From a virus, in the IMG/VR virus record IMGVR_UViG_3300045199_000074: a DNA stretch of 64,000 nt, one strand, 5' to 3'. Positions 21,534 to 56,837 of this stretch are shown in pieces; the stretch's first letter is position 1, and each line of letters opens with the position of its first letter. Position numbers and translations under genes: made by a program. The notes below the pieces were generated by a model that was given only the letters and a program-made list of their open reading frames with translations, had not been told where the DNA came from and made no database searches.

Positions 21534-22541
21534 TCACAACGAAAATACACCCAACGCATCTTTTACCTCTGAGAGCGTTTGTGCCGCTACATCACGTGCC
21601 TCCTTTGAACCCTGACGAATAATGTCTTTGAAGTCGATATCATTGACTGCGCGCTGGTCGCGAATGGGCATCATGATCCGTTCAAGGGATGTAATTAGTT
21701 CCTTCTTGATCGTGACGTCACCCAATCCACCCGCCCGATATCGTTTCTTCAGGTCTTCTACTTTCTCCTGGTCCATTTCGAAGGCGTCAAGGTACGAGAA
21801 CACTACGTTGCCCTCGACTTGGCCAGGATCACTGACGAGGAGATGATTGGGGTCGGTATACATCGCCATGACCTTGTCTTTTACCTCCTTCTGGCTGTCA
21901 TGCAGAAAGATGGCGTTACCAAGTGACTTGCTCGCTTTCGCTTTACCGTCAATTCCTGGAAGGCGAGTGACCTTGGACAGAAGGCTTTTCGGTGTCGGGA
22001 GAATTTCCCTGTTGCCTGCCCGGTTGATCTTCCTGGCAACTTCCTGAGCTAGCTCGATCATAGGTAGTTGATCATCTCCAACAGGGATGCAAGTGGCCTT
22101 GAATGCTGTAATGTCGGCGGCTTGCGATACTGGATAGCACAAGAAACCAGAAGGAATATCACGCTCAAAGTCTCGCATTTTAAGTTCATCGCGGATGGTC
22201 GGGTTTCGTTCCAGACGGGACACCGTAATGAAGTTCATATAGAGCATTGTCAACTCCGCGAGTTCTGGCACGGCTGATTGCAGGAATATGGTTGTCCTGC
22301 TGGGATCGAGGCCGATTGCAAGATAGTCCGAGACCACCTGCGGAATGGCGTCCCTGATCTTGGCCGTATTCTCGGCATTGTCAGTGTAGGCCTGCATATC
22401 GGCAATCATAACGAAGCTACGATATCCTTCATCCTGAAGACGAAGTCGTTGCTGCAACGATCCTGCGTAATGGCCGAGATGAAGAGGTCCAGTCGGACGG
22501 TCGCCAGTGAGTGCGATTGGGGCGATATTAATTGTAGACAT
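21534..22541 (-). CDS. trpS: Tryptophanyl-tRNA synthetase (TrpRS II-like)
   Basis: TGDRPTGPLHLGHY (HIGH), ADMQAYTD, YPVSQAADI, VPVG.DQ-type IPVGDDQLP, KASKSLGN (KMSKS variant). Confidence 0.96.
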   Translation of the reverse strand: MSTINIAPIALTGDRPTGPLHLGHYAGSLQQRLRLQDEGYRSFVMIADMQAYTDNAENTAKIRDAIPQVVSDYLAIGLDPSRTTIFLQSAVPELAELTMLYMNFITVSRLERNPTIRDELKMRDFERDIPSGFLCYPVSQAADITAFKATCIPVGDDQLPMIELAQEVARKINRAGNREILPTPKSLLSKVTRLPGIDGKAKASKSLGNAIFLHDSQKEVKDKVMAMYTDPNHLLVSDPGQVEGNVVFSYLDAFEMDQEKVEDLKKRYRAGGLGDVTIKKELITSLERIMMPIRDQRAVNDIDFKDIIRQGSKEARDVAAQTLSEVKDALGVFSL

Positions 22542-31148: not shown

Positions 31149-31223
31149 TGGATGCCGGGGCGCGACTCGAACGCGCATTATGTAACTTCAAAGGCTCATG
31201 TCCTACCATTAGACGACCCGGCA
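31149..31223 (-). tRNA. tRNA-Gln(TTG), atypical (U discriminator, bulged anticodon stem)
   Basis: U1-A72 acceptor tgccggg/cccggca, loop ctTTGaa, T-loop ttcgagt, encoded CCA. Confidence 0.7.
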
Positions 31224-31258
31224 AGGTTTTAGTCGTCTAATGGTGATTAGACAACTGC

Positions 31259-31498
31259 TTATGCGACGTTTTGTTGTTGTCGCGCAGCTGTGATTAATTC
31301 GTTGTGTTTTCTAATATAGCGCATAAGCATCATGCCTTTTTCTTCTGCCTCAAACGTGGCGTCGCCCATATCAGAAAACGGCACAGGGAATTCAAAGCCA
31401 AGAGCAGTTTTATACCAAAGATTATCTGCTCGCGCGCAAACTAATTTGCACGGGCCTGCAGTAATGTGTTCTTTGATATTGATTGGCATATTGCTCAT
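31259..31498 (-). CDS. Conserved phage-type hypothetical protein inside the tRNA operon
   Basis: NLWYKTALGFEFPVPFSDMGDATFEAEEK...MRYIRKH; GAGG RBS. Confidence 0.75.
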   Translation of the reverse strand: MSNMPINIKEHITAGPCKLVCARADNLWYKTALGFEFPVPFSDMGDATFEAEEKGMMLMRYIRKHNELITAARQQQNVA

Positions 31499-31523
31499 TT
31501 GGTTGGTCCTCTATGTTTATTTC

Positions 31524-31611
31524 TGGCGGAACCGAGAAGATTCGAACTTCTGAGACCTTTCGGCCTGCTCGCTTTCCAAGCGAGTGCATTAGACCACTCT
31601 GCCACGGTTCC
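31524..31611 (-). tRNA. tRNA-Ser(GGA)
   Basis: Class II cloverleaf, ctcgc-ttGGAaa-gcgag, CCA. Confidence 0.95.
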
Positions 31612-31637
31612 GTATTCATTGCATTTTTTTTAAAACA

Positions 31638-31712
31638 TGGCTGGGACGGGAGGATTCGAACCTCCGAATGTCGGTACCAAAAACCGATGCCTTACCGCTT
31701 GGCGACGTCCCA
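31638..31712 (-). tRNA. tRNA-Gln(TTG)
   Basis: tgggacg/cgtccca acceptor, loop ttTTGgt, CCA. Confidence 0.95.
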
Positions 31713-31729
31713 GTATATTTTTTAAATTC

Positions 31730-31803
31730 TGGCTGGGCATCCTGGATTCGAACCAAGACTAACGGATTCAGAGTCCGCTGTTCTACCTTTAAACTAATCC
31801 CCA
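31730..31803 (-). tRNA. tRNA-Gln(CTG)
   Basis: gcgga-ctCTGaa-tccgt, T-loop ttcgaat, CCA. Confidence 0.93.
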
Positions 31804-31809
31804 GTATTC

Positions 31810-31899
31810 TGGCGGAAAGAGAGAGATTTGAACTCTCGAAGCCTTTCGGCTTGCTCGCTTTCGAGGCGAGTGCATTCAACCTGGCTCTGCCATCTTTCC
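31810..31899 (-). tRNA. tRNA-Ser(CGA)
   Basis: ctcgc-ctCGAaa-gcgag, long variable arm, CCA. Confidence 0.93.
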
Positions 31900-31934
31900 A
31901 ATTATTTGGCTATTATAGCCATTATCTCCTATAA

Positions 31935-32138
31935 TTATTGCAGCGCTTTAAATACTGCTTCTTGCACTACGTGACGACTTACTGCACCGTTAAGCTTCTT
32001 CATCGTCTGACCGACGAACCATCCGCGTAAGGCAGATCGTTCTTTTGCTTGCTGAGCCTTGTTATTATGGGTTTTTACTAGGGCCATGACAGTTGCTTCT
32101 ACGACATCAGCCGGAGCATTTAATTCATGTACTGTCAT
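31935..32138 (-). CDS. Stand-alone GatB/YqeY C-terminal (tail) domain-like protein
   Basis: GGGAGA RBS; LRGWFVGQTMKKLNGAVSRHVVQEAV resembles the GatB tail G(F/W)FVGQVMK motif. Confidence 0.65.
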   Translation of the reverse strand: MTVHELNAPADVVEATVMALVKTHNNKAQQAKERSALRGWFVGQTMKKLNGAVSRHVVQEAVFKALQ

Positions 32139-32173
32139 GGCCCATCTCCCATAAATAAACAAACTCAATATAT

Positions 32174-32263
32174 TGGCGGAAAGGGTGGGATTCGAACCCA
32201 CGGTACGGTTTCCCGCACGCTGGTTTTCAAGACCAGAGCCATCAACCACTCGGCCACCTTTCC
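32174..32263 (-). tRNA. tRNA-Ser(TGA)
   Basis: ctggt-ctTGAaa-accag, long variable arm, CCA. Confidence 0.95.
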
Positions 32264-32305
32264 GTATTATTTTTGAACTCCCTACGGATAGGAAATTCGA
32301 ATTCG

Positions 32306-32397
32306 TGGCGGAAACAGGGAGATTCGAACTCCCGAGGGCATTTTACCTCCCTGACGGTTTAGCAAACCGCTGCTTTAAGCCTCTCAGCCATGTTTCC
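32306..32397 (-). tRNA. tRNA-Ser(GCT)
   Basis: gcggt-ttGCTaa-accgt, long variable arm, CCA. Confidence 0.95.
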
Positions 32398-32403
32398 ACA
32401 CAT

Positions 32404-32430
32404 AAAAAACCCGCCTTTTAGGCGGGTTCT
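32404..32430 (-). terminator. Attenuator terminator upstream of the Ser/Gln tRNA operon
   Basis: agaacccgcc-taaaa-ggcgggtttttt ending 6 nt before tRNA-Ser(GCT). Confidence 0.9.
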
Positions 32431-32455
32431 GAAACCTTTTGATCTGATATGGAGG

Positions 32456-32548
32456 TCAGATATTTAGGTCAGTCACCGCGCACATCAACGCATTCGAGCT
32501 TGATGAACTCGATTGTCTTGATTGCTGTTGGGATGACTGAATAAACAT
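32456..32548 (-). CDS. Ser/Gln leader peptide MFIQSSQQQSRQSSSSSSNALMCAVTDLNI*
   Basis: GGAGA RBS 6 nt upstream; 14 of codons 4-18 are Ser (9) or Gln (5). Confidence 0.85.
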   Translation of the reverse strand: MFIQSSQQQSRQSSSSSSNALMCAVTDLNI

Positions 32549-32572
32549 TTTTAATCTCCGTGATCTTCATTT

Positions 32573-32601
32573 AAGATGAAGTATGTATTTACCAATGTCA
32601 A
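32573..32601 (-). promoter_or_regulatory. Sigma70-like promoter of the Ser/Gln operon
   Basis: TTGACA-N17-CATCTT. Confidence 0.6.
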
Positions 32602-32619: not shown

Positions 32620-33492
32620 TTACATTTTTATTTCCGGACTGTTGGCGTCGATCTCAACATCGCTGGATGCAGTATTATTTATGAGATGTGGTTTCGTTAG
32701 AATTGCTGCATTAAAAATGGCTAATCCTCCGACTGATCGATCATAAACGCCATCGATTCCTCTCTTTCGGGCCTGCAGATCGAAATCGTCTCTACCGATG
32801 ATAGACACTAGCCCGCTTTCTATCCATTTTTGATTGTCCTTATGATTTCTCAAGTCGAGTATCAAGGCCCCTTCTTTGATTGTGGTGACGATAACGGCTC
32901 CACCATTTTCGTCATCTGAAAATTCCGCATAGTTTGAGATTGCCAGTTCCACATCGTCAGCCACATAAAATGCGCGTCCAAAATAGCCTGTTCCAATAGA
33001 TGGTTTGATACCGTAATTCAGGATGTCTTCCGCATTTTCATTCGATGTCCCGTGATAAACTTCCCTACACGACCATCCAATTGCTCCTGAAGGAACTCCG
33101 TCATTCGGGCTGAGGGAGGCCAGCAAGATTGCTTGTTTGACGACATCAACATCGTCCCAAGTGAGATTTCCGCCGATGGAAGGTCCGCTGTCACTTGTAA
33201 GTTTTGGGAACTTATCCAATACATGTGGTAATAGCTGCATTGTGTGTGGATCAACGTAAGTGCCATGCGGCCCGTCTATTTTTACCTCGACGGTTTCGTA
33301 ATCCTCCAATGTATCCAGTTTTCGTTTTGGGCTACATTGATATCCGTACTTGTCGGCCTGGATCGATAATGACCATCCGTGATCCCACTTAATGGATGGG
33401 AATAAACGGCCGTCTTCTTCGGTTCTTTTAGTCATAAGCTCAAACTCGTAGTTTTCATGCTTCAAAATATGGAATAGTAATGAAACAATCAA
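32620..33492 (-). CDS. Two-domain hypothetical protein with a C-terminal PARP/ART-like (H-Y) domain
   Basis: VYHGTS...GYFGRAFYVADD...A..Y motif. Confidence 0.55.
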   Translation of the reverse strand: MIVSLLFHILKHENYEFELMTKRTEEDGRLFPSIKWDHGWSLSIQADKYGYQCSPKRKLDTLEDYETVEVKIDGPHGTYVDPHTMQLLPHVLDKFPKLTSDSGPSIGGNLTWDDVDVVKQAILLASLSPNDGVPSGAIGWSCREVYHGTSNENAEDILNYGIKPSIGTGYFGRAFYVADDVELAISNYAEFSDDENGGAVIVTTIKEGALILDLRNHKDNQKWIESGLVSIIGRDDFDLQARKRGIDGVYDRSVGGLAIFNAAILTKPHLINNTASSDVEIDANSPEIKM

Positions 33493-33525: not shown

Positions 33526-33861
33526 ATGCGACCACAGAAAGAGAGTTTTATAAAAATGACGACTGGAAGATCTAAACTTGCTGCCGAAATTAAAGATTTC
33601 ATTGAAAAGCACGCAAACATTTCACCAAATTACGACCCTGAACACGATGATCCAGAAGATAGATTTACTGGACCTGATGCGTCTTTGATGAACCAGGCTG
33701 CCTTGGCATTAGAAGAAGACCTTGAATTCACTTATGTGCATTCTGACTGGGGGTCCGGTTGCTACTCTCCATATGGTGATAAGCAGGCGCGTGCTTGGCA
33801 CGATGACCTTAAACAGCGCGCCAATGACCTTCGGCTATCTCCTAAGCCTTCACTGCGCTAA
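33526..33861 (+). CDS. Hypothetical protein
   Basis: 111-aa ORF. Confidence 0.65.
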   Translation: MRPQKESFIKMTTGRSKLAAEIKDFIEKHANISPNYDPEHDDPEDRFTGPDASLMNQAALALEEDLEFTYVHSDWGSGCYSPYGDKQARAWHDDLKQRANDLRLSPKPSLR

Positions 33862-34785
33862 CTTATTTGCGGTATCCAGCACATAGGACGCCGCAGTATT
33901 AAAATTGGAGAACGTTTTGAAGGCTGTGTAATCCTTAGGAGGGACACCGAGCTTAGGAGACGAGTCCCCTCCATTTTGAGGGCCGTAGAGCCACAACCAG
34001 AGATTGGCATCGGTAATCGAACCTTGAGGATTGGTTCGTCCGCCACCATTACCACCAGCGCCCATCGAACAATTCTGTCCGTCAGGTATGCGTGCATCAC
34101 GTTGTATTCGCTCTATATCGATTGAGCTATTCTGCTTTATGATTGGATAGCATCCATATTCTCTTCTCAGTCTGTCTGATGTTTCTTCTTTCCAAAGGTC
34201 CATTAGAATGCGCTCTCCGGTGCCAGCGGCCCAATATGCGGATGCCTTTCCTGTCATTGAGGCTATTTGTCTGGAAGACGAGCGCACGCGACCTGGCAGG
34301 AATTTGTAATCACCGCCCATGAGTGAAAGTCCAAGAGTAGCAAATGCTACAGCTCTATTCTCTTCCTGATCTGATAATGCAGTGTCAAGACAATGAGCAG
34401 CATGATATAGAAGAAGCCAGCTTGCAGTTTCGGCGCTCGACGGCAAGTCATAAATAGTCGGCAATGGGGAGCCATAAGAATCTGCAATGAAATTTGGATC
34501 TATATTTGAGATGGGAGGCAGCAGCGCGCATACGCGTCGCGTTCCTTTTCCGTCGAAATCATATTCGATAATATGCGACATACCCATTAATTCAGTGTTA
34601 GACGTCATAAAGCGAACATGTTCACTGCACCAATTTTGTTTTGTTTTTTCACATAAAATTGCGGCGGTTCTAGCCCAGAATTCTGCTGGATCGTCACGAC
34701 GTTCGAGAATGGCAATCTGAACACCTGATACACTTTCCAATGCTGTAATAAAAGCGAAGGCGGCTGTTGGTAAATCTATTGCCAT
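33850..34785 (-). CDS. Hypothetical protein with a degenerate zincin-like motif (YHAAHC)
   Basis: GGAG RBS; 311 aa. Confidence 0.7.
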   Translation of the reverse strand: MAIDLPTAAFAFITALESVSGVQIAILERRDDPAEFWARTAAILCEKTKQNWCSEHVRFMTSNTELMGMSHIIEYDFDGKGTRRVCALLPPISNIDPNFIADSYGSPLPTIYDLPSSAETASWLLLYHAAHCLDTALSDQEENRAVAFATLGLSLMGGDYKFLPGRVRSSSRQIASMTGKASAYWAAGTGERILMDLWKEETSDRLRREYGCYPIIKQNSSIDIERIQRDARIPDGQNCSMGAGGNGGGRTNPQGSITDANLWLWLYGPQNGGDSSPKLGVPPKDYTAFKTFSNFNTAASYVLDTANKLAQ

Positions 34786-34996: not shown

Positions 34997-35164
34997 ATGA
35001 CAACATCGGCACATACAGTACAGGGAAAGGTTGCGGCAGTTTCTGCTCGCGTCGCCCTGTCTCGTGCCTTGTCGGCACTACCTCATCTCCCACATTTGTT
35101 ACCACTCCCGTATTTGGGATGTGGTCAGCGGGCTGTATTGGCGACTGAAGGATACGCAAATTAA
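34997..35164 (+). CDS. Leu/Pro/His/Tyr leader peptide (55 aa; control run LPHLPHLLPLPYL at 35078-35116)
   Basis: GAGGA RBS 7 nt upstream of the ATG at 34997; 13 consecutive Leu/Pro/His/Tyr codons. Confidence 0.85.
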   Translation: MTTSAHTVQGKVAAVSARVALSRALSALPHLPHLLPLPYLGCGQRAVLATEGYAN

Positions 35165-35183: not shown

Positions 35184-35230
35184 AAGAAGAAACCCTCGCT
35201 GGCCACAAGCTACCGAGGGTTTCTTCTTTT
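35184..35230 (+). terminator. Attenuator terminator upstream of tRNA cluster 2
   Basis: Perfect 15-bp stem aagaagaaaccctcg / cgagggtttcttctt followed by tt. Confidence 0.9.
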
Positions 35231-35370
35231 GTGCGTCTGTATTTCCTCGTTAGAGGGTTCTGTTTATAACAGAATGATCTTTGAAATTGTGAGCAAGAAC
35301 AGTGCAAGCTGGCTTTGGATGTTGTGGCCGTCACCGCGATATTCTTTGGTGAGCTAGTTTGCGAAGAATT

Positions 35371-35454
35371 GGAGGGTTGCCCGAGAGGCCGAACGGGACG
35401 GACTGTAAATCCGTTGAGAAATCCGCGTTGGTTCGAATCCAACACCCTTCACCA
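35371..35454 (+). tRNA. tRNA-Tyr(GTA)
   Basis: acgga-ctGTAaa-tccgt, CCA. Confidence 0.95.
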
Positions 35455-35461
35455 ATTAAAT

Positions 35462-35544
35462 GTGGCAGTGGCGGAATAGGTAGACGCGGTGGATTCAAAA
35501 TCCATTGGGAAACCGTGAGAGTTCGAGTCTCTCCTGCCGCACCA
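35462..35544 (+). tRNA. tRNA-Leu(CAA)
   Basis: gtgga-ttCAAaa-tccat, CCA. Confidence 0.95.
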
Positions 35545-35622
35545 AAATGAATGTATCCGTCTGGGTTTAGAGTATTTAAATATTCAACCCAGACGGAGAA
35601 GAGAAAATGTAATCCGATCTTT

Positions 35623-35699
35623 CGGAGTGTAGCGCAGTCTGGTAGCGCACCTGCCTTGGGAGCAGGGGGTCGCAGGTTCGAATCCTGCCGTTCCGACCA
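35623..35699 (+). tRNA. tRNA-Pro(TGG)
   Basis: cctgc-ctTGGga-gcagg, C1 start, CCA. Confidence 0.95.
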
Positions 35700-35729
35700 T
35701 CGGATTACATTTTCTCTTCGGAGAAATAT

Positions 35730-35812
35730 GCGGTTATGGCGAAATTGGTAGACGCACCAGATTTAGGTTCTGGCGGGAAACCGTGGGGGTTCGAGTCCCT
35801 CTAACCGTACCA
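35730..35812 (+). tRNA. tRNA-Leu(TAG)
   Basis: ccaga-ttTAGgt-tctgg, CCA. Confidence 0.95.
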
Positions 35813-35828
35813 TCTTTTAATACTAATT

Positions 35829-36049
35829 GGGGATGCTCGCCTGGATTCGGTGTGGGCAGTTGCAAAAAACGTAGAACGCGACCGGGGTAAAACCCGGTCT
35901 TCGAAATATCTCAAGCACACGAGTTGTGGATGCACCGAAATAGCCAGAGAGGGCCGAGTAGGGAAGCGCGTTTCTCAAGCATTGAGGTAGCCTGTGGTAA
36001 TGCTCAGGTCCGAAGACAATCGCCGGTTCGAACCCGGTCATCTCCACCA
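35829..36049 (+). ncRNA. Short one-piece tmRNA-like RNA (221 nt)
   Basis: GGGGATG/CATCTCC acceptor with G3-U70, A discriminator and CCA; ctGGATTCG near the 5' end; T arm ccgg-ttcgaac-ccgg; long irregular helix 2. Confidence 0.7.
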
Positions 36050-36054
36050 TTTTC

Positions 36055-36146
36055 GGGGGACGCCAATAAGGATGGGCGGTTCTGTCACTCGGTTGTAACC
36101 CGAGTCCCTATGCGGCAAGCAGTTCAAATCTAGCCGTCCCCCACCA
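36055..36146 (+). ncRNA. Non-canonical tRNA-like RNA A (8-bp acceptor, GTA loop)
   Basis: gggggacg/cgtccccc + ACCA; actcgg-ttGTAac-ccgagt; T-loop ttcaaat. Confidence 0.65.
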
Positions 36147-36154
36147 TTTCGCAC

Positions 36155-36244
36155 GGGGAGTGCGTTAAGAAGGGTATGACAACCCTGGCAGGCCGTACAC
36201 CTGTCCCCTAGTGGCTACGGTAAAAATCCGTCCACTCCCCACCA
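36155..36244 (+). ncRNA. Non-canonical tRNA-like RNA B (8-bp acceptor, GTA loop, degenerate T-loop)
   Basis: ggggagtg/cactcccc + ACCA; gcagg-ccGTAca-cctgt; acgg-taaaaat-ccgt. Confidence 0.65.
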
Positions 36245-36310
36245 AATTTAAACTAACGGGCCGAGACCTGCTGCCTTAAGTGGCGCTGCTCGGCCCGTGA
36301 ACGAAGAATT

Positions 36311-36387
36311 CGGAGTATAGCGCAGCCTGGTAGCGCGATGGTTTTGGGAACCATAGGTCGCAGGTTCGAAGCCTGCTACTCCGACCA
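36311..36387 (+). tRNA. tRNA-Pro(TGG), second copy
   Basis: atggt-ttTGGga-accat, CCA. Confidence 0.93.
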
Positions 36388-36394
36388 ACTAAAT

Positions 36395-36498
36395 GGCAGG
36401 GCCCTGACGTATCCTAGGTAACATTCGTCGGAGTCGGCGTACTAATCAAAGATTACGGATTGATCATCCGCTGAGATCAAGTGCCTGTCCTGCCACCA
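36395..36498 (+). ncRNA. Unknown structured RNA with an 8-bp terminal stem and 3' ACCA
   Basis: ggcagggc/gtcctgcc + ACCA; internal hairpins; no T-loop or D-loop consensus. Confidence 0.5.
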
Positions 36499-36541
36499 GT
36501 TTCGGGCTATTCCTTAGAAAGATTAGCTAGTCATTAAACGT

Positions 36542-36616
36542 GCCGTAGTAGCTCAATGGTTAGAGCGCTGGATTGTGGCTCCAGAGACGGTGGTTCGACT
36601 CCACCCTTCGGTTCCA
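36542..36616 (+). tRNA. tRNA-His(GTG)
   Basis: ctgga-ttGTGgc-tccag, CCA; no encoded G-1; U at the discriminator. Confidence 0.9.
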
Positions 36617-36657
36617 ATACATATGAGTATCCGCTATAGATAAATCAGCGGAAATGT

Positions 36658-36741
36658 GCGGCTGTGGTGGAATGGCAGACACGCAGCGTTGAGGTCGCTG
36701 TGGGGTAACCCGTGGAAGTTCGAATCTTCTCAGCCGCACCA
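36658..36741 (+). tRNA. tRNA-Leu(GAG)
   Basis: cagcg-ttGAGgt-cgctg, CCA. Confidence 0.95.
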
Positions 36742-36784
36742 AGAAACAACAAAACACTATATATCATGTTCCTATTATTAGTTT

Positions 36785-36868
36785 GTGGGCTTGGCGAAAT
36801 TGGTAGACGCGCCGGACTTAAAATGCGGTTCTTAATGAGTACGAGTTCGATCCTCGTAGCCCACACCA
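36785..36868 (+). tRNA. tRNA-Leu(TAA)
   Basis: Loop ctTAAaa, class II, CCA; one anticodon-stem mismatch. Confidence 0.9.
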
Positions 36869-36885
36869 CTATTAACCCTTCAAAT

Positions 36886-36980
36886 GCGGCCGTGGCGGAA
36901 TTTAGTATACGCGCTGGGTTCAGGTCCCAGTGGAGAGCTTGCAACTCTCTGTGCAGGTGCAAGTCCTGCCGTCCGCACCA
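36886..36980 (+). tRNA. tRNA-Leu(CAG), atypical T-loop (tgcaagt)
   Basis: ctggg-ttCAGgt-cccag, long variable arm, CCA. Confidence 0.88.
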
Positions 36981-56163: not shown

Positions 56164-56250
56164 ATGTCTGTTTATTTGATCAATCGTCGGCGATTTAGTG
56201 TTGTTGGACATCCGGTGGGATGGCTTCCAAAGCGCTTGCGCATGACATGA
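56164..56250 (+). CDS. Arg/Phe leader peptide 1 MSVYLINRRRFSVVGHPVGWLPKRLRMT*
   Basis: AAGGGA RBS; CGT CGG CGA TTT run and later CGC x2; followed by a terminator. Confidence 0.7.
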   Translation: MSVYLINRRRFSVVGHPVGWLPKRLRMT

Positions 56251-56343: not shown

Positions 56344-56454
56344 ATGCGACGACGACGGCGATTAAAGGTTCGATTTATAACCCAACATGCTGACTTTATT
56401 AACTTGGGATACCGTTTCCTGAGGCGATATTTTACACCTGTTGTTTATTCCTAA
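56344..56454 (+). CDS. Arg/Phe-rich leader-like ORF 2 MRRRRRLKVRFITQHADFINLGYRFLRRYFTPVVYS*
   Basis: GGAG RBS 6 nt upstream; CGA CGA CGA CGG CGA; 9 Arg and 4 Phe in 36 aa. Confidence 0.7.
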   Translation: MRRRRRLKVRFITQHADFINLGYRFLRRYFTPVVYS

Positions 56455-56490: not shown

Positions 56491-56518
56491 TTGACGCCGT
56501 TATTTCTTTGTGTAATAT
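56491..56518 (+). promoter_or_regulatory. Possible internal promoter directly upstream of tRNA-Phe
   Basis: TTGACG-N16-TAATAT. Confidence 0.45.
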
Positions 56519-56551: not shown

Positions 56552-56627
56552 GCCATTGTAGCTCAGTTGGTAGAGCACCGCACTGAAGATGCGGGTGTCG
56601 GCGGTTCGAATCCGCCCGATGGCACCA
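56552..56627 (+). tRNA. tRNA-Phe(GAA)
   Basis: ccgca-ctGAAga-tgcgg, 76 nt, CCA. Confidence 0.96.
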
Positions 56628-56679
56628 GATCTTTCCTTTTGGTTTTTGGACGTTTCCAAGGCGTCCTTAAATTAAGATT

Positions 56680-56757
56680 GCGTTTGTAGCTCAGCCGGAA
56701 AAGAGCGTCGGTCTACGAAACCGAAGGTCACAGGTTCGAATCCTGTCAAACGCACCA
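56680..56757 (+). tRNA. tRNA-Arg(ACG)
   Basis: tcggt-ctACGaa-accga, CCA. Confidence 0.96.
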
Positions 56758-56760
56758 TTT

Positions 56761-56837
56761 GCGACTGTAGCTCAATGGACAGAGCATCTCGCTCCGAACG
56801 GGAAGGTAGGTGAGTTCGAATCTCCTCAGTCGCACCA
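56761..56837 (+). tRNA. tRNA-Arg(CCG)
   Basis: tctcg-ctCCGaa-cggga, CCA. Confidence 0.95.

What the first reader, a model, noticed from the sequence alone, without database searches (positions are those of the whole stretch)
31149..32601. Ser/Gln attenuator: leader uses every codon class served by the downstream tRNAs
Seen: codons 4-18 are CAG TCA TCC CAA CAG CAA TCA AGA CAA TCG AGT TCA TCA AGC TCG, so TCA, TCC, TCG, AGY, CAA and CAG are all present and each has a cognate tRNA downstream. The terminator (32404-32430) ends 6 nt before tRNA-Ser(GCT). On the minus strand, a 1:2 hairpin catcaagc/gcgttgatg (32483-32505) overlaps the Ser run. A candidate antiterminator pairs gcgg-tga-ctga-cct (32479-32466) with agg-tt-tcag-aac-ccgc (32437-32422), which takes the left arm of the terminator. 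Inference: stalling at Ser/Gln codons frees segment 2 and allows read-through.
Basis: partly seen in the sequence, partly recalled or inferred. Interest (0 to 1): 0.9.

Follow-up and report, generated by a model that had tools for sequence, protein, structure and literature searches.

The report
Leader-peptide attenuator gating Ser/Gln tRNAs
A 30-codon mini-gene made almost entirely of serine and glutamine codons, followed by a switchable transcription stop, sits directly in front of seven spare Ser/Gln tRNA genes, so this accessory element probably makes those tRNAs only when ribosomes read Ser/Gln codons slowly, a control I could not find published for tRNA genes.

Summary
On the minus strand there is a promoter (TTGACA-N17-CATCTT), a GGAG ribosome-binding site and a 30-codon ORF (32548..32456). 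Fourteen of its codons 4-18 are Ser or Gln. A strong intrinsic terminator follows, and its T-run ends 6 nt before tRNA-Ser(GCU), the first of seven Ser/Gln tRNAs. No other 15-codon stretch in the window reaches even 10 Ser/Gln.

The same cassette precedes all 19 related Ser/Gln arrays I fetched, from Mesorhizobium, Pararhizobium, Rhizobium, Sinorhizobium, Agrobacterium, Neorhizobium and metagenomes, at 44-67% GC. A GCGG motif after the run is kept in three different reading frames and pairs with the terminator's 5' arm. The most divergent member has changed both partners together.

Folding with a ribosome footprint gives the classical logic. A stall early or mid-run frees GCGG and the antiterminator forms. 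With no ribosome, or a ribosome at the stop codon, the terminator forms.

Neighbouring arrays (Leu/Pro/His/Tyr, Trp/Thr/Cys/Arg and others) carry leaders matched to their own tRNAs. The mechanism is a known kind, leader-peptide attenuation, applied to tRNA genes. I found no publication of this, but this scan has noted the same class before on other DNA, mostly phages. Nothing is shown experimentally.

The parts
32573..32601 (-). Promoter: -35 TTGACA (32601..32596), 17-nt spacer, -10-like CATCTT (32578..32573), with an AT-rich stretch upstream
   Evidence: Read. TTGAC lies 50-59 nt before the ATG, with a CATATC/CATCTT-type hexamer after N17, in all 19 related loci.
32556..32559 (-). Shine-Dalgarno GGAG, 7 nt before the ATG
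   Evidence: GGAG or AGGA is present at 5-9 nt spacing in 17 of 19 relatives.
32456..32548 (-). Leader ORF, 30 codons plus TGA (MFIQSSQQQSRQSSSSSSNALMCAVTDLNI)
   Evidence: Homologous 26-37 codon ORFs precede all 19 Ser/Gln arrays.
32495..32539 (-). Regulatory run, codons 4-18: 9 Ser, 5 Gln and 1 Arg, using TCA, TCC, TCG, AGT, AGC, CAA and CAG
   Evidence: It is the only place in the window with 10 or more Ser/Gln in 15 codons. All six isoacceptor classes of the array are used in 19 of 19 leaders.
32532..32540 (-). Segment 1 (UCAGUCAUC, codons 3-6). In ribosome-free RNA it pairs with segment 2.
   Evidence: Minimum-energy folds. In 17 of 19 relatives the GCGG segment pairs with the 5' part of the ORF with P of 0.5 or more, and in 14 of them its MFE partners lie in codons 4-9 at the start of the run.
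32494..32512 (-). Conserved 7-bp hairpin inside the Ser codons (TCGAGTT / CATCA / AGCTCGA). It caps the 1:2 helix and is a possible pause hairpin.
   Evidence: It is one of the two helices RNAalifold recovers. One pair varies C-G (9), U-G (5), U-A (5), and one pair shows A-U to C-G. The U-A form costs a Ser-to-Asn change in the peptide.
32466..32479 (-). Segment 2 (GCGG-UGA-CUGA-CCU), the 5' strand of the antiterminator
   Evidence: GCGG follows the run in 18 of 19 leaders, in reading frames 0, 1 and 2. It pairs with 32437-32422 in footprint-masked folds.
32422..32437 (-). Segment 3 (AGG-UU-UCAG-AAC-CCGC), the 3' strand of the antiterminator, overlapping the 5' arm of the terminator
   Evidence: With a ribosome stalled mid-run, the terminator 5' core is paired before the 3' arm exists with P = 0.97, against 0.32 in shuffles.
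32404..32430 (-). Intrinsic terminator: AGAACCCGCC / loop / GGCGGGUUUU plus U-run, ending 6 nt before the first tRNA
   Evidence: -16.7 kcal/mol. It is nearly invariant in relatives. The gap from T-run end to tRNA is 3-21 nt in 19 loci, which leaves no room for a separate promoter.
31149..32397 (-). Controlled array: tRNA-Ser(GCU), Ser(UGA), [67-aa ORF], Ser(CGA), Gln(CUG), Gln(UUG), Ser(GGA), [79-aa ORF], Gln(UUG)
   Evidence: ARAGORN and Rfam tRNA, 49-62 bits.
31935..32138 (-). 67-aa ORF inside the array: a stand-alone GatB/YqeY C-terminal (tRNA-binding) domain
   Evidence: Pfam PF02637 at 1.6e-6 and NCBIfam GatB C-terminus at 6.9e-8. The same ORF is present in L022.
31259..31498 (-). 79-aa ORF inside the array, of unknown function
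   Evidence: phrog_20427 at 8.9e-22. Homologs occur in jumbo phages such as XacN1 and RsoM2USA. ORFs of 75-80 aa sit at this position in relatives.

Best explanation
This is a ribosome-mediated (leader-peptide) transcription attenuator that gates an accessory Ser/Gln tRNA operon.

Shown from sequence:
- A promoter, a ribosome-binding site and a 30-codon ORF with a run of 14 Ser/Gln in 15 codons.
- An intrinsic terminator abutting the first tRNA.
- Two mutually exclusive pairings of the terminator's 5' arm.

Inferred mechanism:
- RNA polymerase starts near 32566 and a ribosome loads on the nascent leader.
- If Ser- and Gln-tRNAs are plentiful, the ribosome runs to the stop codon at 32458-32456. 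There it covers the GCGG segment (32479-32466), or, after release, that segment re-pairs with codons 3-6. The terminator forms and transcription ends at about 32404.
- If any of the six decoding species (Ser GCU, UGA, CGA, GGA; Gln CUG, UUG) is scarce, the ribosome stalls in the early or middle run. Segment 1 is then occupied, GCGG...CCU pairs with AGG...CCGC and takes the terminator's 5' arm, and polymerase reads into the seven tRNAs and two small ORFs. RNase P then frees the tRNAs.

Because the products relieve the stall, this forms a negative-feedback loop on tRNA supply. It is one of several such units on a large accessory element that carries a second tRNA set. The physiological trigger (tRNA depletion or damage, codon-usage mismatch, or amino-acid starvation) is not determined.
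For: Anatomy.

Uniqueness of the run in the window.

Conservation: 19 of 19 Ser/Gln arrays in relatives have the promoter, RBS, Ser/Gln leader and terminator, with only 3-21 nt to the first tRNA. These relatives have a 311-aa neighbouring protein only 46-89% identical and local GC of 44-67%.

RNA-level constraint:
- GCGG is kept in 18 of 19 leaders in three reading frames, coding CAV, LRG, ACG or RAR.
- L029 has a different terminator arm (GAAGGCCCGC) and a matching different segment 2 (GCCUUCGG, 8 bp).
- The hairpin inside the run is kept by compensatory changes.

Switch logic:
- In free RNA, GCGG pairs with the 5' part of the ORF in 17 of 19, with MFE partners in the early run codons in 14, and never with the terminator arm.
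- With a footprint on the early or middle run, the terminator 5' core is paired (mean 0.93 against 0.61 in dinucleotide shuffles, higher in 19 of 19).
- With a ribosome at the stop codon the value is lower in most sequences.

Specificity:
- The adjacent Leu/Pro/His/Tyr arrays have L/P/H/Y leaders. Best-12 own-residue scores are 11.8 against 3.0 for Ser/Gln, and the reverse holds for the Ser/Gln leaders.
- In Mesorhizobium SP-1A, a Trp-Thr-Thr-Cys-Arg array has the leader MRNTRTTWTCWRT, and an Asn/Val/Gly/Ala/Met/Ile/Thr array has the leader AIAINTINVTANMAGG.
- On a Bosea plasmid, Ser tRNAs are grouped with Tyr, Arg and Leu, and the leader reads RLSSSSLSLSSLSYS with no Gln.

Spare set: the host of L001 has 92 tRNAs, about half of them in the element.
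Against: - There is no experimental evidence. The only RNA libraries holding this DNA are kept as contigs, which cannot show 3' ends or read-through.
- The antiterminator is an interrupted helix (4+4+3 bp in the window) and much weaker than the terminator, so it must win kinetically.
- In 3 of 19 sequences (L023, L034, L040) the terminator arm is predicted to be paired whatever the ribosome position.
- Simple footprint masks predict little antitermination for stalls at the last 4-5 Ser codons.
- The 19 sequences are related, so the Wilcoxon p of 4e-6 overstates independence.
- Coverage of all six codon classes is expected by chance in 23-65% of single leaders.
- If the stall is caused by amino-acid starvation rather than tRNA shortage, making more tRNA would be futile.
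Confidence: 0.78

Rival explanations
1. Same attenuator hardware, but the signal is Ser or Gln availability (charging) or general translation stress, not the supply of the tRNAs themselves. The array would then be a stress-induced back-up rather than a homeostat.
For: Classical attenuators sense charged tRNA and cannot tell low tRNA from low amino acid (established knowledge of trp and his attenuation). A long tRNA operon in Anabaena is silent and is induced by translational stress (PMC8421152, abstract).
Against: Each array has a leader written in exactly its own amino acids, and all isoacceptor classes are used in 19 of 19 leaders. A general stress sensor would not need that. More tRNA does not help amino-acid starvation. 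The sequence alone cannot decide between the two.
Confidence: 0.15
2. The ORF is an independent small-protein gene with its own terminator. The tRNAs would be made by leaky read-through or an unrecognised promoter, and there is no regulated switch.
For: The N-terminal MF and the Ser/Gln core of the peptide are conserved. The terminator is strong in every locus.
Against: Only 3-21 nt separate the U-run from the tRNA. The C-terminal half of the peptide is not conserved, while the GCGG nucleotides in it are, in three frames. Peptide changes (Ser to Asn) are accepted to keep an RNA hairpin. Other arrays have leaders of different, array-matched composition.
Confidence: 0.05
3. It is a chance low-complexity ORF next to the terminator of the upstream PARP-like gene.
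For: The terminator could also serve the gene at 33492..32620.
Against: The run is unique in the window. A promoter lies between that gene and the ORF. The cassette is conserved in 19 of 19 loci, including loci where the upstream gene differs.
Confidence: 0.01

Closest known systems
Multivalent leader-peptide attenuators of enterobacterial amino-acid operons (thrL: Thr/Ile; ilvL of ilvGMEDA: Ile/Leu/Val), and trpL, hisL, leuL, pheL
   Same: Promoter, RBS and a short ORF with a run of regulatory codons for more than one amino acid, followed by segments 1:2, 2:3 and 3:4 and an intrinsic terminator. The position of the ribosome chooses the fold. (Named from established knowledge; general logic as in PMC1183508.)
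   Different: The genes behind the terminator are tRNAs, not biosynthetic enzymes. The product therefore acts directly on the sensor, and the quantity held constant would be decoding capacity. There is no sequence relationship: no Rfam leader family matches.
pheM leader attenuator of pheST (phenylalanyl-tRNA synthetase), E. coli
   Same: Leader-peptide attenuation applied to a gene of the translation apparatus rather than to biosynthesis (from memory of the classical literature; not re-read here).
   Different: It controls a synthetase, not tRNAs, and senses a single amino acid. I also checked E. coli pheV itself: its promoter sits directly before the tRNA with no leader ORF.
Sinorhizobium meliloti trpL attenuator (rnTrpL / peTrpL)
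   Same: A ribosome-dependent attenuator in Rhizobiales, the lineage that includes the named isolate carriers. Its terminated leader RNA and its peptide have functions in trans (PMC6614838, PMC7298713; abstracts).
   Different: It controls trpE(G) and uses Trp codons. Whether the Ser/Gln leader RNA of about 160 nt acts in trans is unknown.
T-box riboswitches
   Same: A transcription attenuator that reads the state of a specific tRNA and controls genes of the translation apparatus.
   Different: The T-box binds uncharged tRNA directly, without translation. Here there is a translated ORF and no T-box or specifier motif, and no Rfam T-box hit in the window.
Long tRNA arrays induced by translational stress in cyanobacteria (PMC8421152), and tRNA array units of mycobacteria and phages (PMC4758250, PMC5966550, PMC12803027)
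   Same: Accessory, clustered, horizontally moving tRNA sets that duplicate the host set. They are proposed as back-up or anti-defence.
   Different: The cyanobacterial paper contains none of the words leader, attenuator, terminator or uORF, so its control is of another kind. The Ser/Gln array has 7 genes, below the 20-gene definition of an array unit.

Membership tests
Ribosome-mediated leader-peptide transcription attenuators | Short ORF with its own RBS directly downstream of the promoter, in the 5' leader of the operon | tested here: met
   TTGACA-N17-CATCTT, GGAG 7 nt before the ATG, and a 30-codon ORF. Conserved in 19 of 19 loci.
Ribosome-mediated leader-peptide transcription attenuators | Cluster of regulatory codons cognate to what the operon supplies | tested here: met
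   14 of 15 codons are Ser/Gln before a Ser/Gln tRNA array. Unique in the window. Other arrays carry other, matched leaders.
Ribosome-mediated leader-peptide transcription attenuators | Intrinsic terminator between the leader ORF and the first structural gene | tested here: met
   Stem of 10-11 bp plus U6, -16.7 kcal/mol, 6 nt before the tRNA. Energies of -15 to -20 kcal/mol in all 19.
Ribosome-mediated leader-peptide transcription attenuators | Antiterminator mutually exclusive with the terminator, and an anti-antiterminator (1:2) that overlaps the regulatory codons | tested here: met
   Footprint-masked folds, shuffle control, 1:2 partner analysis, frame-independent GCGG and the co-changed pair in L029. 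These are predictions only, and the result is not clean in 3 of 19.
Ribosome-mediated leader-peptide transcription attenuators | Read-through rises when the cognate charged tRNA is limiting | not testable with these tools
   The RNA runs are held only as contigs.
Ribosome-mediated leader-peptide transcription attenuators | Controls amino-acid biosynthesis, transport or synthetase genes (the scope of all described members) | tested here: not met
   The controlled genes are seven tRNAs and two small ORFs. I therefore file this as a new variant, not an ordinary member.
Rfam leader families (His, Leu, Thr, Trp, Phe leaders) and T-box | Match to the covariance model at its gathering score | tested here: not met
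   The Rfam 15 scan of the whole window returned only the 19 tRNAs.
tRNA array unit (sensu PMC4758250) | At least 20 tRNA genes at 2 or more per kb | tested here: not met
   7 tRNAs in 1.25 kb here, and 19 in three arrays over 26 kb of the window. The whole element in Mesorhizobium SP-1A has about 46 in seven arrays over about 130 kb. The definition is taken from the abstract shown.

The most novel reading that the evidence does not exclude
The element carries a complete, modular 'tRNA homeostat'. Its second tRNA set is split into operons, and each is gated by a leader that samples every isoacceptor it contains. Loss of any one tRNA species would then switch on exactly the operon that replaces it. 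The loss could come from anticodon nucleases of toxins, from phage or defence systems, or from a mismatch between element and host codon usage. The same design recurs in phage tRNA arrays noted elsewhere in this scan, which would make it a widespread, undescribed way of regulating tRNA genes by decoding demand.
Probability: 0.4. Interest if true: 0.9.

Novelty: new variant of a known kind. Interest (0 to 1): 0.8.

Why it matters
Bacterial tRNA genes are usually thought to be controlled globally, by growth rate and the stringent response, and not species by species. A leader that reads its own operon's codons would be a direct feedback on decoding capacity for named isoacceptors.

It would explain how mobile elements and phages can carry large tRNA sets without paying for constant expression. 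It would also suggest that such sets are inducible spares against tRNA depletion.

The cassette is small, self-contained and present in cultivable rhizobia. The idea is therefore testable with reporters, Term-seq or a defined translation system. The leaders could also serve as codon-specific or tRNA-specific biosensors.

Tried and rejected
- Prior art from memory: I recalled an attenuator-like leader before E. coli pheU/pheV. The two NAR papers could not be opened by DOI. The MG1655 sequence shows the pheV promoter directly before the tRNA with no leader ORF, so I dropped this.
- Literature: seven full-text searches found no report of leader-peptide attenuation of tRNA genes. The Anabaena tRNA-operon paper has no such terms.
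- Expression: the DNA comes from ant metagenomes. Six RNA libraries hold it, but only as contigs, so no 3' end, strand or level can be read.
- No whole genome is held for the window.
- Megablast of the locus against plasmids and phages hit only tRNA-Ser.
- BLASTN of the leader across 401 genomes of the order gave only chance terminator hits besides G001.
- The 311-aa neighbour was found in 1 of 401 species representatives of the family, so the element is strain-level accessory.
- The 79-aa ORF found nothing in viral contigs.
- The M. extorquens AM1 megaplasmid and Bosea pANAM02 have the 311-aa homolog but no tRNAs within 9 kb of it. The AM1 three-tRNA cluster has a plain promoter and no leader.
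- RNAalifold on the whole alignment recovers only the inner hairpin and the terminator. The long-range helices are not alignable column by column, so I analysed them per sequence.
- 'All codon classes present' is not significant for one sequence.
Full report
**1. What is in the sequence**

Read on the minus strand, the region holds the following parts in order:
- An AT-rich stretch.
- TTGACA (32601..32596), a 17-nt spacer, and CATCTT (32578..32573).
- GGAG (32559..32556), then ATG at 32548.
- A 30-codon ORF ending in TGA at 32458-32456. The peptide is MFIQSSQQQSRQSSSSSSNALMCAVTDLNI.
- A terminator at 32430..32404, with a stem of 10-11 bp (-16.7 kcal/mol) and six U.
- Six nucleotides later, tRNA-Ser(GCU) at 32397.

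ARAGORN and Rfam agree on seven tRNAs between 32397 and 31149. They are Ser GCU, UGA, CGA and GGA, and Gln CUG, UUG and UUG.

They comprise 9 Ser (TCA x4, TCC, TCG x2, AGT, AGC), 5 Gln (CAA x3, CAG x2) and one AGA.

Among 67,567 stop-free 15-codon windows in all six frames of the 64 kb, this is the only place with 10 or more Ser/Gln. It has 14, and the next best elsewhere has 9.

**2. Where the DNA comes from**

No genome is held for the window. The DNA occurs in ant metagenomes. The window is about 44% GC and carries gyrA, trpS, a ClpA-like ATPase, a strawberry-notch helicase, PcfJ and C5 methylases.

It also carries two further tRNA arrays: Tyr/Leu/Pro/His at 35371-36980 and Phe/Arg at 56552-56837.

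The 311-aa protein between the first two arrays (33850-34785) has about 80 homolog clusters. They come from Rhizobium, Sinorhizobium, Agrobacterium, Neorhizobium and metagenomes. It also occurs in Mesorhizobium sp. SP-1A and Pararhizobium sp. BT-229, and on megaplasmids of R. leguminosarum, M. extorquens AM1 and Bosea.

It was found in only 1 of 401 species representatives of the family. This is therefore a strain-level accessory element.

In Mesorhizobium SP-1A the genome has 92 tRNA hits. About half lie in seven arrays within about 130 kb of one contig, and the rest are dispersed. The arrays are thus a second, spare tRNA set.

**3. Comparative test of the cassette**

I fetched the surroundings of the 311-aa gene from 21 loci. 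Nineteen of them contain a Ser/Gln array.

All nineteen have, in the same order:
- TTGAC 50-59 nt before an ATG.
- A -10-like hexamer after N17.
- A GGAG or AGGA ribosome-binding site in 17 of the 19 (the other two have only a weak or distant match).
- An ORF of 26-37 codons whose core is QQQ(Q)S(S)QSSSSSS.
- A terminator of -15 to -20 kcal/mol.
- Only 3-21 nt from the U-run to the first tRNA.

The loci range from 44 to 67% GC, and the neighbouring protein is as little as 46% identical. There is no room for a separate promoter between terminator and tRNA. Read-through is therefore the only evident way to transcribe the array.

**4. Evidence that the RNA, not the peptide, is constrained downstream of the run**

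The C-terminal halves of the peptides differ: NALMCAVTDLNI, IAMLRGIDGVAV, IAGACGIDTVV, MVRARVITETGI. Yet the nucleotides GCGG(G) occur 4-15 nt after the run in 18 of 19 leaders, in reading frames 0, 1 and 2. GCGG(G) is complementary to (C)CCGC in the terminator's 5' arm.

The one exception is L029, the most divergent leader. Its terminator arm is different (GAAGGCCCGC), and its post-run segment is GCCUUCGG, which gives 8 perfect pairs with CCGAAGGC of that arm. The two partners have changed together.

Inside the run, the Ser codons TCG AGY TCN TCN AGC TCG form a 7-bp hairpin that RNAalifold recovers. One pair varies C-G (9), U-G (5), U-A (5). The U-A form is obtained by changing a Ser codon AGC to Asn AAC. 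Another pair shows A-U to C-G.

**5. Switch logic**

The free leader folds far better than shuffles (-56.8 kcal/mol, z = -5.9). In ribosome-free full-length RNA, the GCGG segment pairs with the 5' part of the ORF in 17 of 19 sequences (P of 0.5 or more). In 14 of these its MFE partners lie in codons 4-9, the start of the run. It never pairs with the terminator arm, and the terminator forms.

In the window, segment 1 is UCAGUCAUC (32540-32532).

I then imposed a 28-nt unpaired footprint at every A-site position. I folded only the RNA that exists before the terminator's 3' arm is made. The results were:
- With the ribosome on the early or middle run, the terminator's 5' core is paired with P of 0.7-1.0.
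- With the ribosome at the stop codon, or with no ribosome, the value falls to 0.05-0.5 in most sequences.

In a control, the region upstream of the arm was dinucleotide-shuffled. This gave a mean of 0.61 against 0.93 observed, with the observed value higher in 19 of 19. The sequences are related, so this is not 19 independent trials.

Exceptions are L023, L034 and L040, where the arm is predicted to be paired in all states.

Stalls on the last 4-5 Ser codons are not predicted to antiterminate with this simple mask. This is partly because the model lets segment 1 re-pair behind the ribosome.

**6. Specificity: leaders follow their arrays**

In the same loci, every Leu/Pro/His/Tyr array has its own leader and terminator. 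Examples are ..ALPHLPHLLPLPYLG.. in the window (34997-35164), ALYHLPLYLLPPH, YHPSPLYPLPLPY and AHLPLPLHLLPLPY.

Best-12-codon scores are:

| Leader type | Ser/Gln score | L/P/H/Y score |
|---|---|---|
| Ser/Gln leaders | 11.6 | 1.5 |
| L/P/H/Y leaders | 3.0 | 11.8 |

Elsewhere in the Mesorhizobium element:
- A Trp-Thr-Thr-Cys-Arg array follows MRNTRTTWTCWRTYRG.
- An Asn/Val/Gly/Ala/Met/Ile/Thr array follows ..VRAIAINTINVTANMAGG..
- Glu-Asp-Glu follows MPEGDDDSDEREREE.
- Phe-Arg follows MRRRRRKKARFRSKMFDF.
- A Lys-Lys pair has no obvious leader.

On Bosea plasmid pANAM02 the Ser tRNAs are grouped with Tyr, Arg and Leu instead of Gln. The leader there reads ..RLSSSSLSLSSLSYS.., with no Gln, and is followed by a terminator. 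Composition of leader and array therefore co-vary across independent units. This is the strongest argument that the match is functional.

**7. What is weaker than it looks**

All six isoacceptor classes are represented in the run of all 19 leaders. For a single leader, however, this is expected by chance with P of 0.23-0.65 (0.59 for the window), given the number of Ser and Gln codons and local codon usage.

The antiterminator is an interrupted helix, weaker than the terminator, and must act kinetically.

Nothing is known about expression. RNA libraries from ants hold the stretch, but only as contigs, which cannot show ends or levels.

**8. Mechanism and rivals**

The best explanation is classical ribosome-mediated attenuation with several regulatory codon types, applied to a tRNA operon. 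Slow decoding of Ser or Gln codons lets polymerase pass into the tRNAs that decode them. Fast decoding terminates transcription at about 32404.

Shown by sequence and comparison: the parts and their conservation. Inferred: the order of events and the trigger.

The main rival keeps the hardware but makes the signal amino-acid or general translation stress. Sequence cannot separate the two. The array-specific leaders argue against a generic stress sensor.

A free-standing peptide gene and chance are both very unlikely.

**9. Comparison with what is known**

The cassette works like the multivalent attenuators of thr and ilvGMEDA, and like trpL of S. meliloti (PMC6614838). It meets every structural criterion of that class that I could test.

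It differs in what it controls. It matches no Rfam leader family or T-box.

E. coli pheV, which I remembered as having an attenuator-like leader, has none.

The cyanobacterial stress-induced tRNA operon (PMC8421152) is described without any leader or attenuator.

Seven searches of the held literature found no description of leader-peptide attenuation of tRNA genes. Much of the subscription literature is not held, so this is 'not found', not 'absent'.

**10. Earlier notes of this scan**

An identical stretch was noted in another genome.

Follow-up agents have reported the same class before several phage tRNA arrays and one bacterial spare array. These are unchecked AI notes and not independent evidence. 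They do mean that this is a recurrence within the scan rather than a first sighting.

**Verdict**

The finding is a new variant of a known kind. Interest is 0.8, pending a simple experimental test.

Noticed in passing
window 31935-32138 (-): A 67-aa ORF inside the Ser/Gln tRNA operon is a stand-alone C-terminal GatB/YqeY domain, the tRNA-binding tail of Glu-tRNA(Gln) amidotransferase (Pfam 1.6e-6, NCBIfam 6.9e-8). It would be co-regulated with tRNA-Gln. The same ORF is in L022.
   Followed up: partly
window 31259-31498 (-); L052 (Xanthomonas phage XacN1): The 79-aa ORF in the array belongs to phrog_20427 (8.9e-22). It has homologs in jumbo phages (XacN1, RsoM2USA, CBB, GAP32, Serratia BF and others). 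In XacN1 it lies four genes before an ORF annotated as glutamyl-tRNA amidotransferase, so the two small array ORFs also travel together in a phage.
   Followed up: partly
window 34997-35164 (+), terminator about 35184-35233: A second attenuator-like leader (..ALPHLPHLLPLPYLG..) sits before the Tyr/Leu/Pro/His array. The segment GGTCAGCGGG is conserved in relatives and is complementary to the terminator arm. An L/P/H/Y-rich leader ORF was found upstream of every related Leu/Pro/His/Tyr array examined.
   Followed up: partly
window 56164-56250 and 56344-56454 (+); promoter-like 56491-56518: Two Arg/Phe-rich small ORFs (..NRRRF.. with a terminator, then MRRRRRLKVRF..) lie before the Phe/Arg array. 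A good TTGACG-N16-TAATAT promoter lies between them and tRNA-Phe, so this unit may be wired differently. The Mesorhizobium copy has MRRRRRKKARFRSKMFDF.
   Followed up: partly
window 35813-36310 (+): About 500 nt between tRNA-Leu(UAG) and tRNA-Pro hold several structured stretches ending in CCACCA-like tails. Neither ARAGORN nor Rfam calls them.
   Followed up: no
L037 7831-8393: In one relative, ARAGORN calls a tRNA with anticodon UUA (which reads the UAA stop) at the third position of the Ser/Gln array, where the window has tRNA-Ser(CGA). It may be a suppressor or a decayed tRNA.
   Followed up: no
G001 contig 2, 935-1066 kb (L047-L051): The Mesorhizobium SP-1A element carries about 46 tRNAs in seven arrays, doubling the host set of about 46. 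Most arrays have a codon-matched leader, but the Lys-Lys pair has none.
   Followed up: partly
L045 (Bosea pANAM02 98.6-100 kb): An Ala-Asn-Ile-Met array has the leader MRANAAVNMTAAVAINAA plus a terminator 325 nt upstream. A TTGACG promoter sits directly before the tRNAs, the same two-tier layout as the window's Phe/Arg unit.
   Followed up: no
window 21534-22541 (-): The element encodes its own tryptophan-tRNA ligase (TIGR00233, 2.7e-74). Relatives carry S21, LpxC and HisRS-like fragments near the arrays, so the island collects translation-related genes.
   Followed up: no
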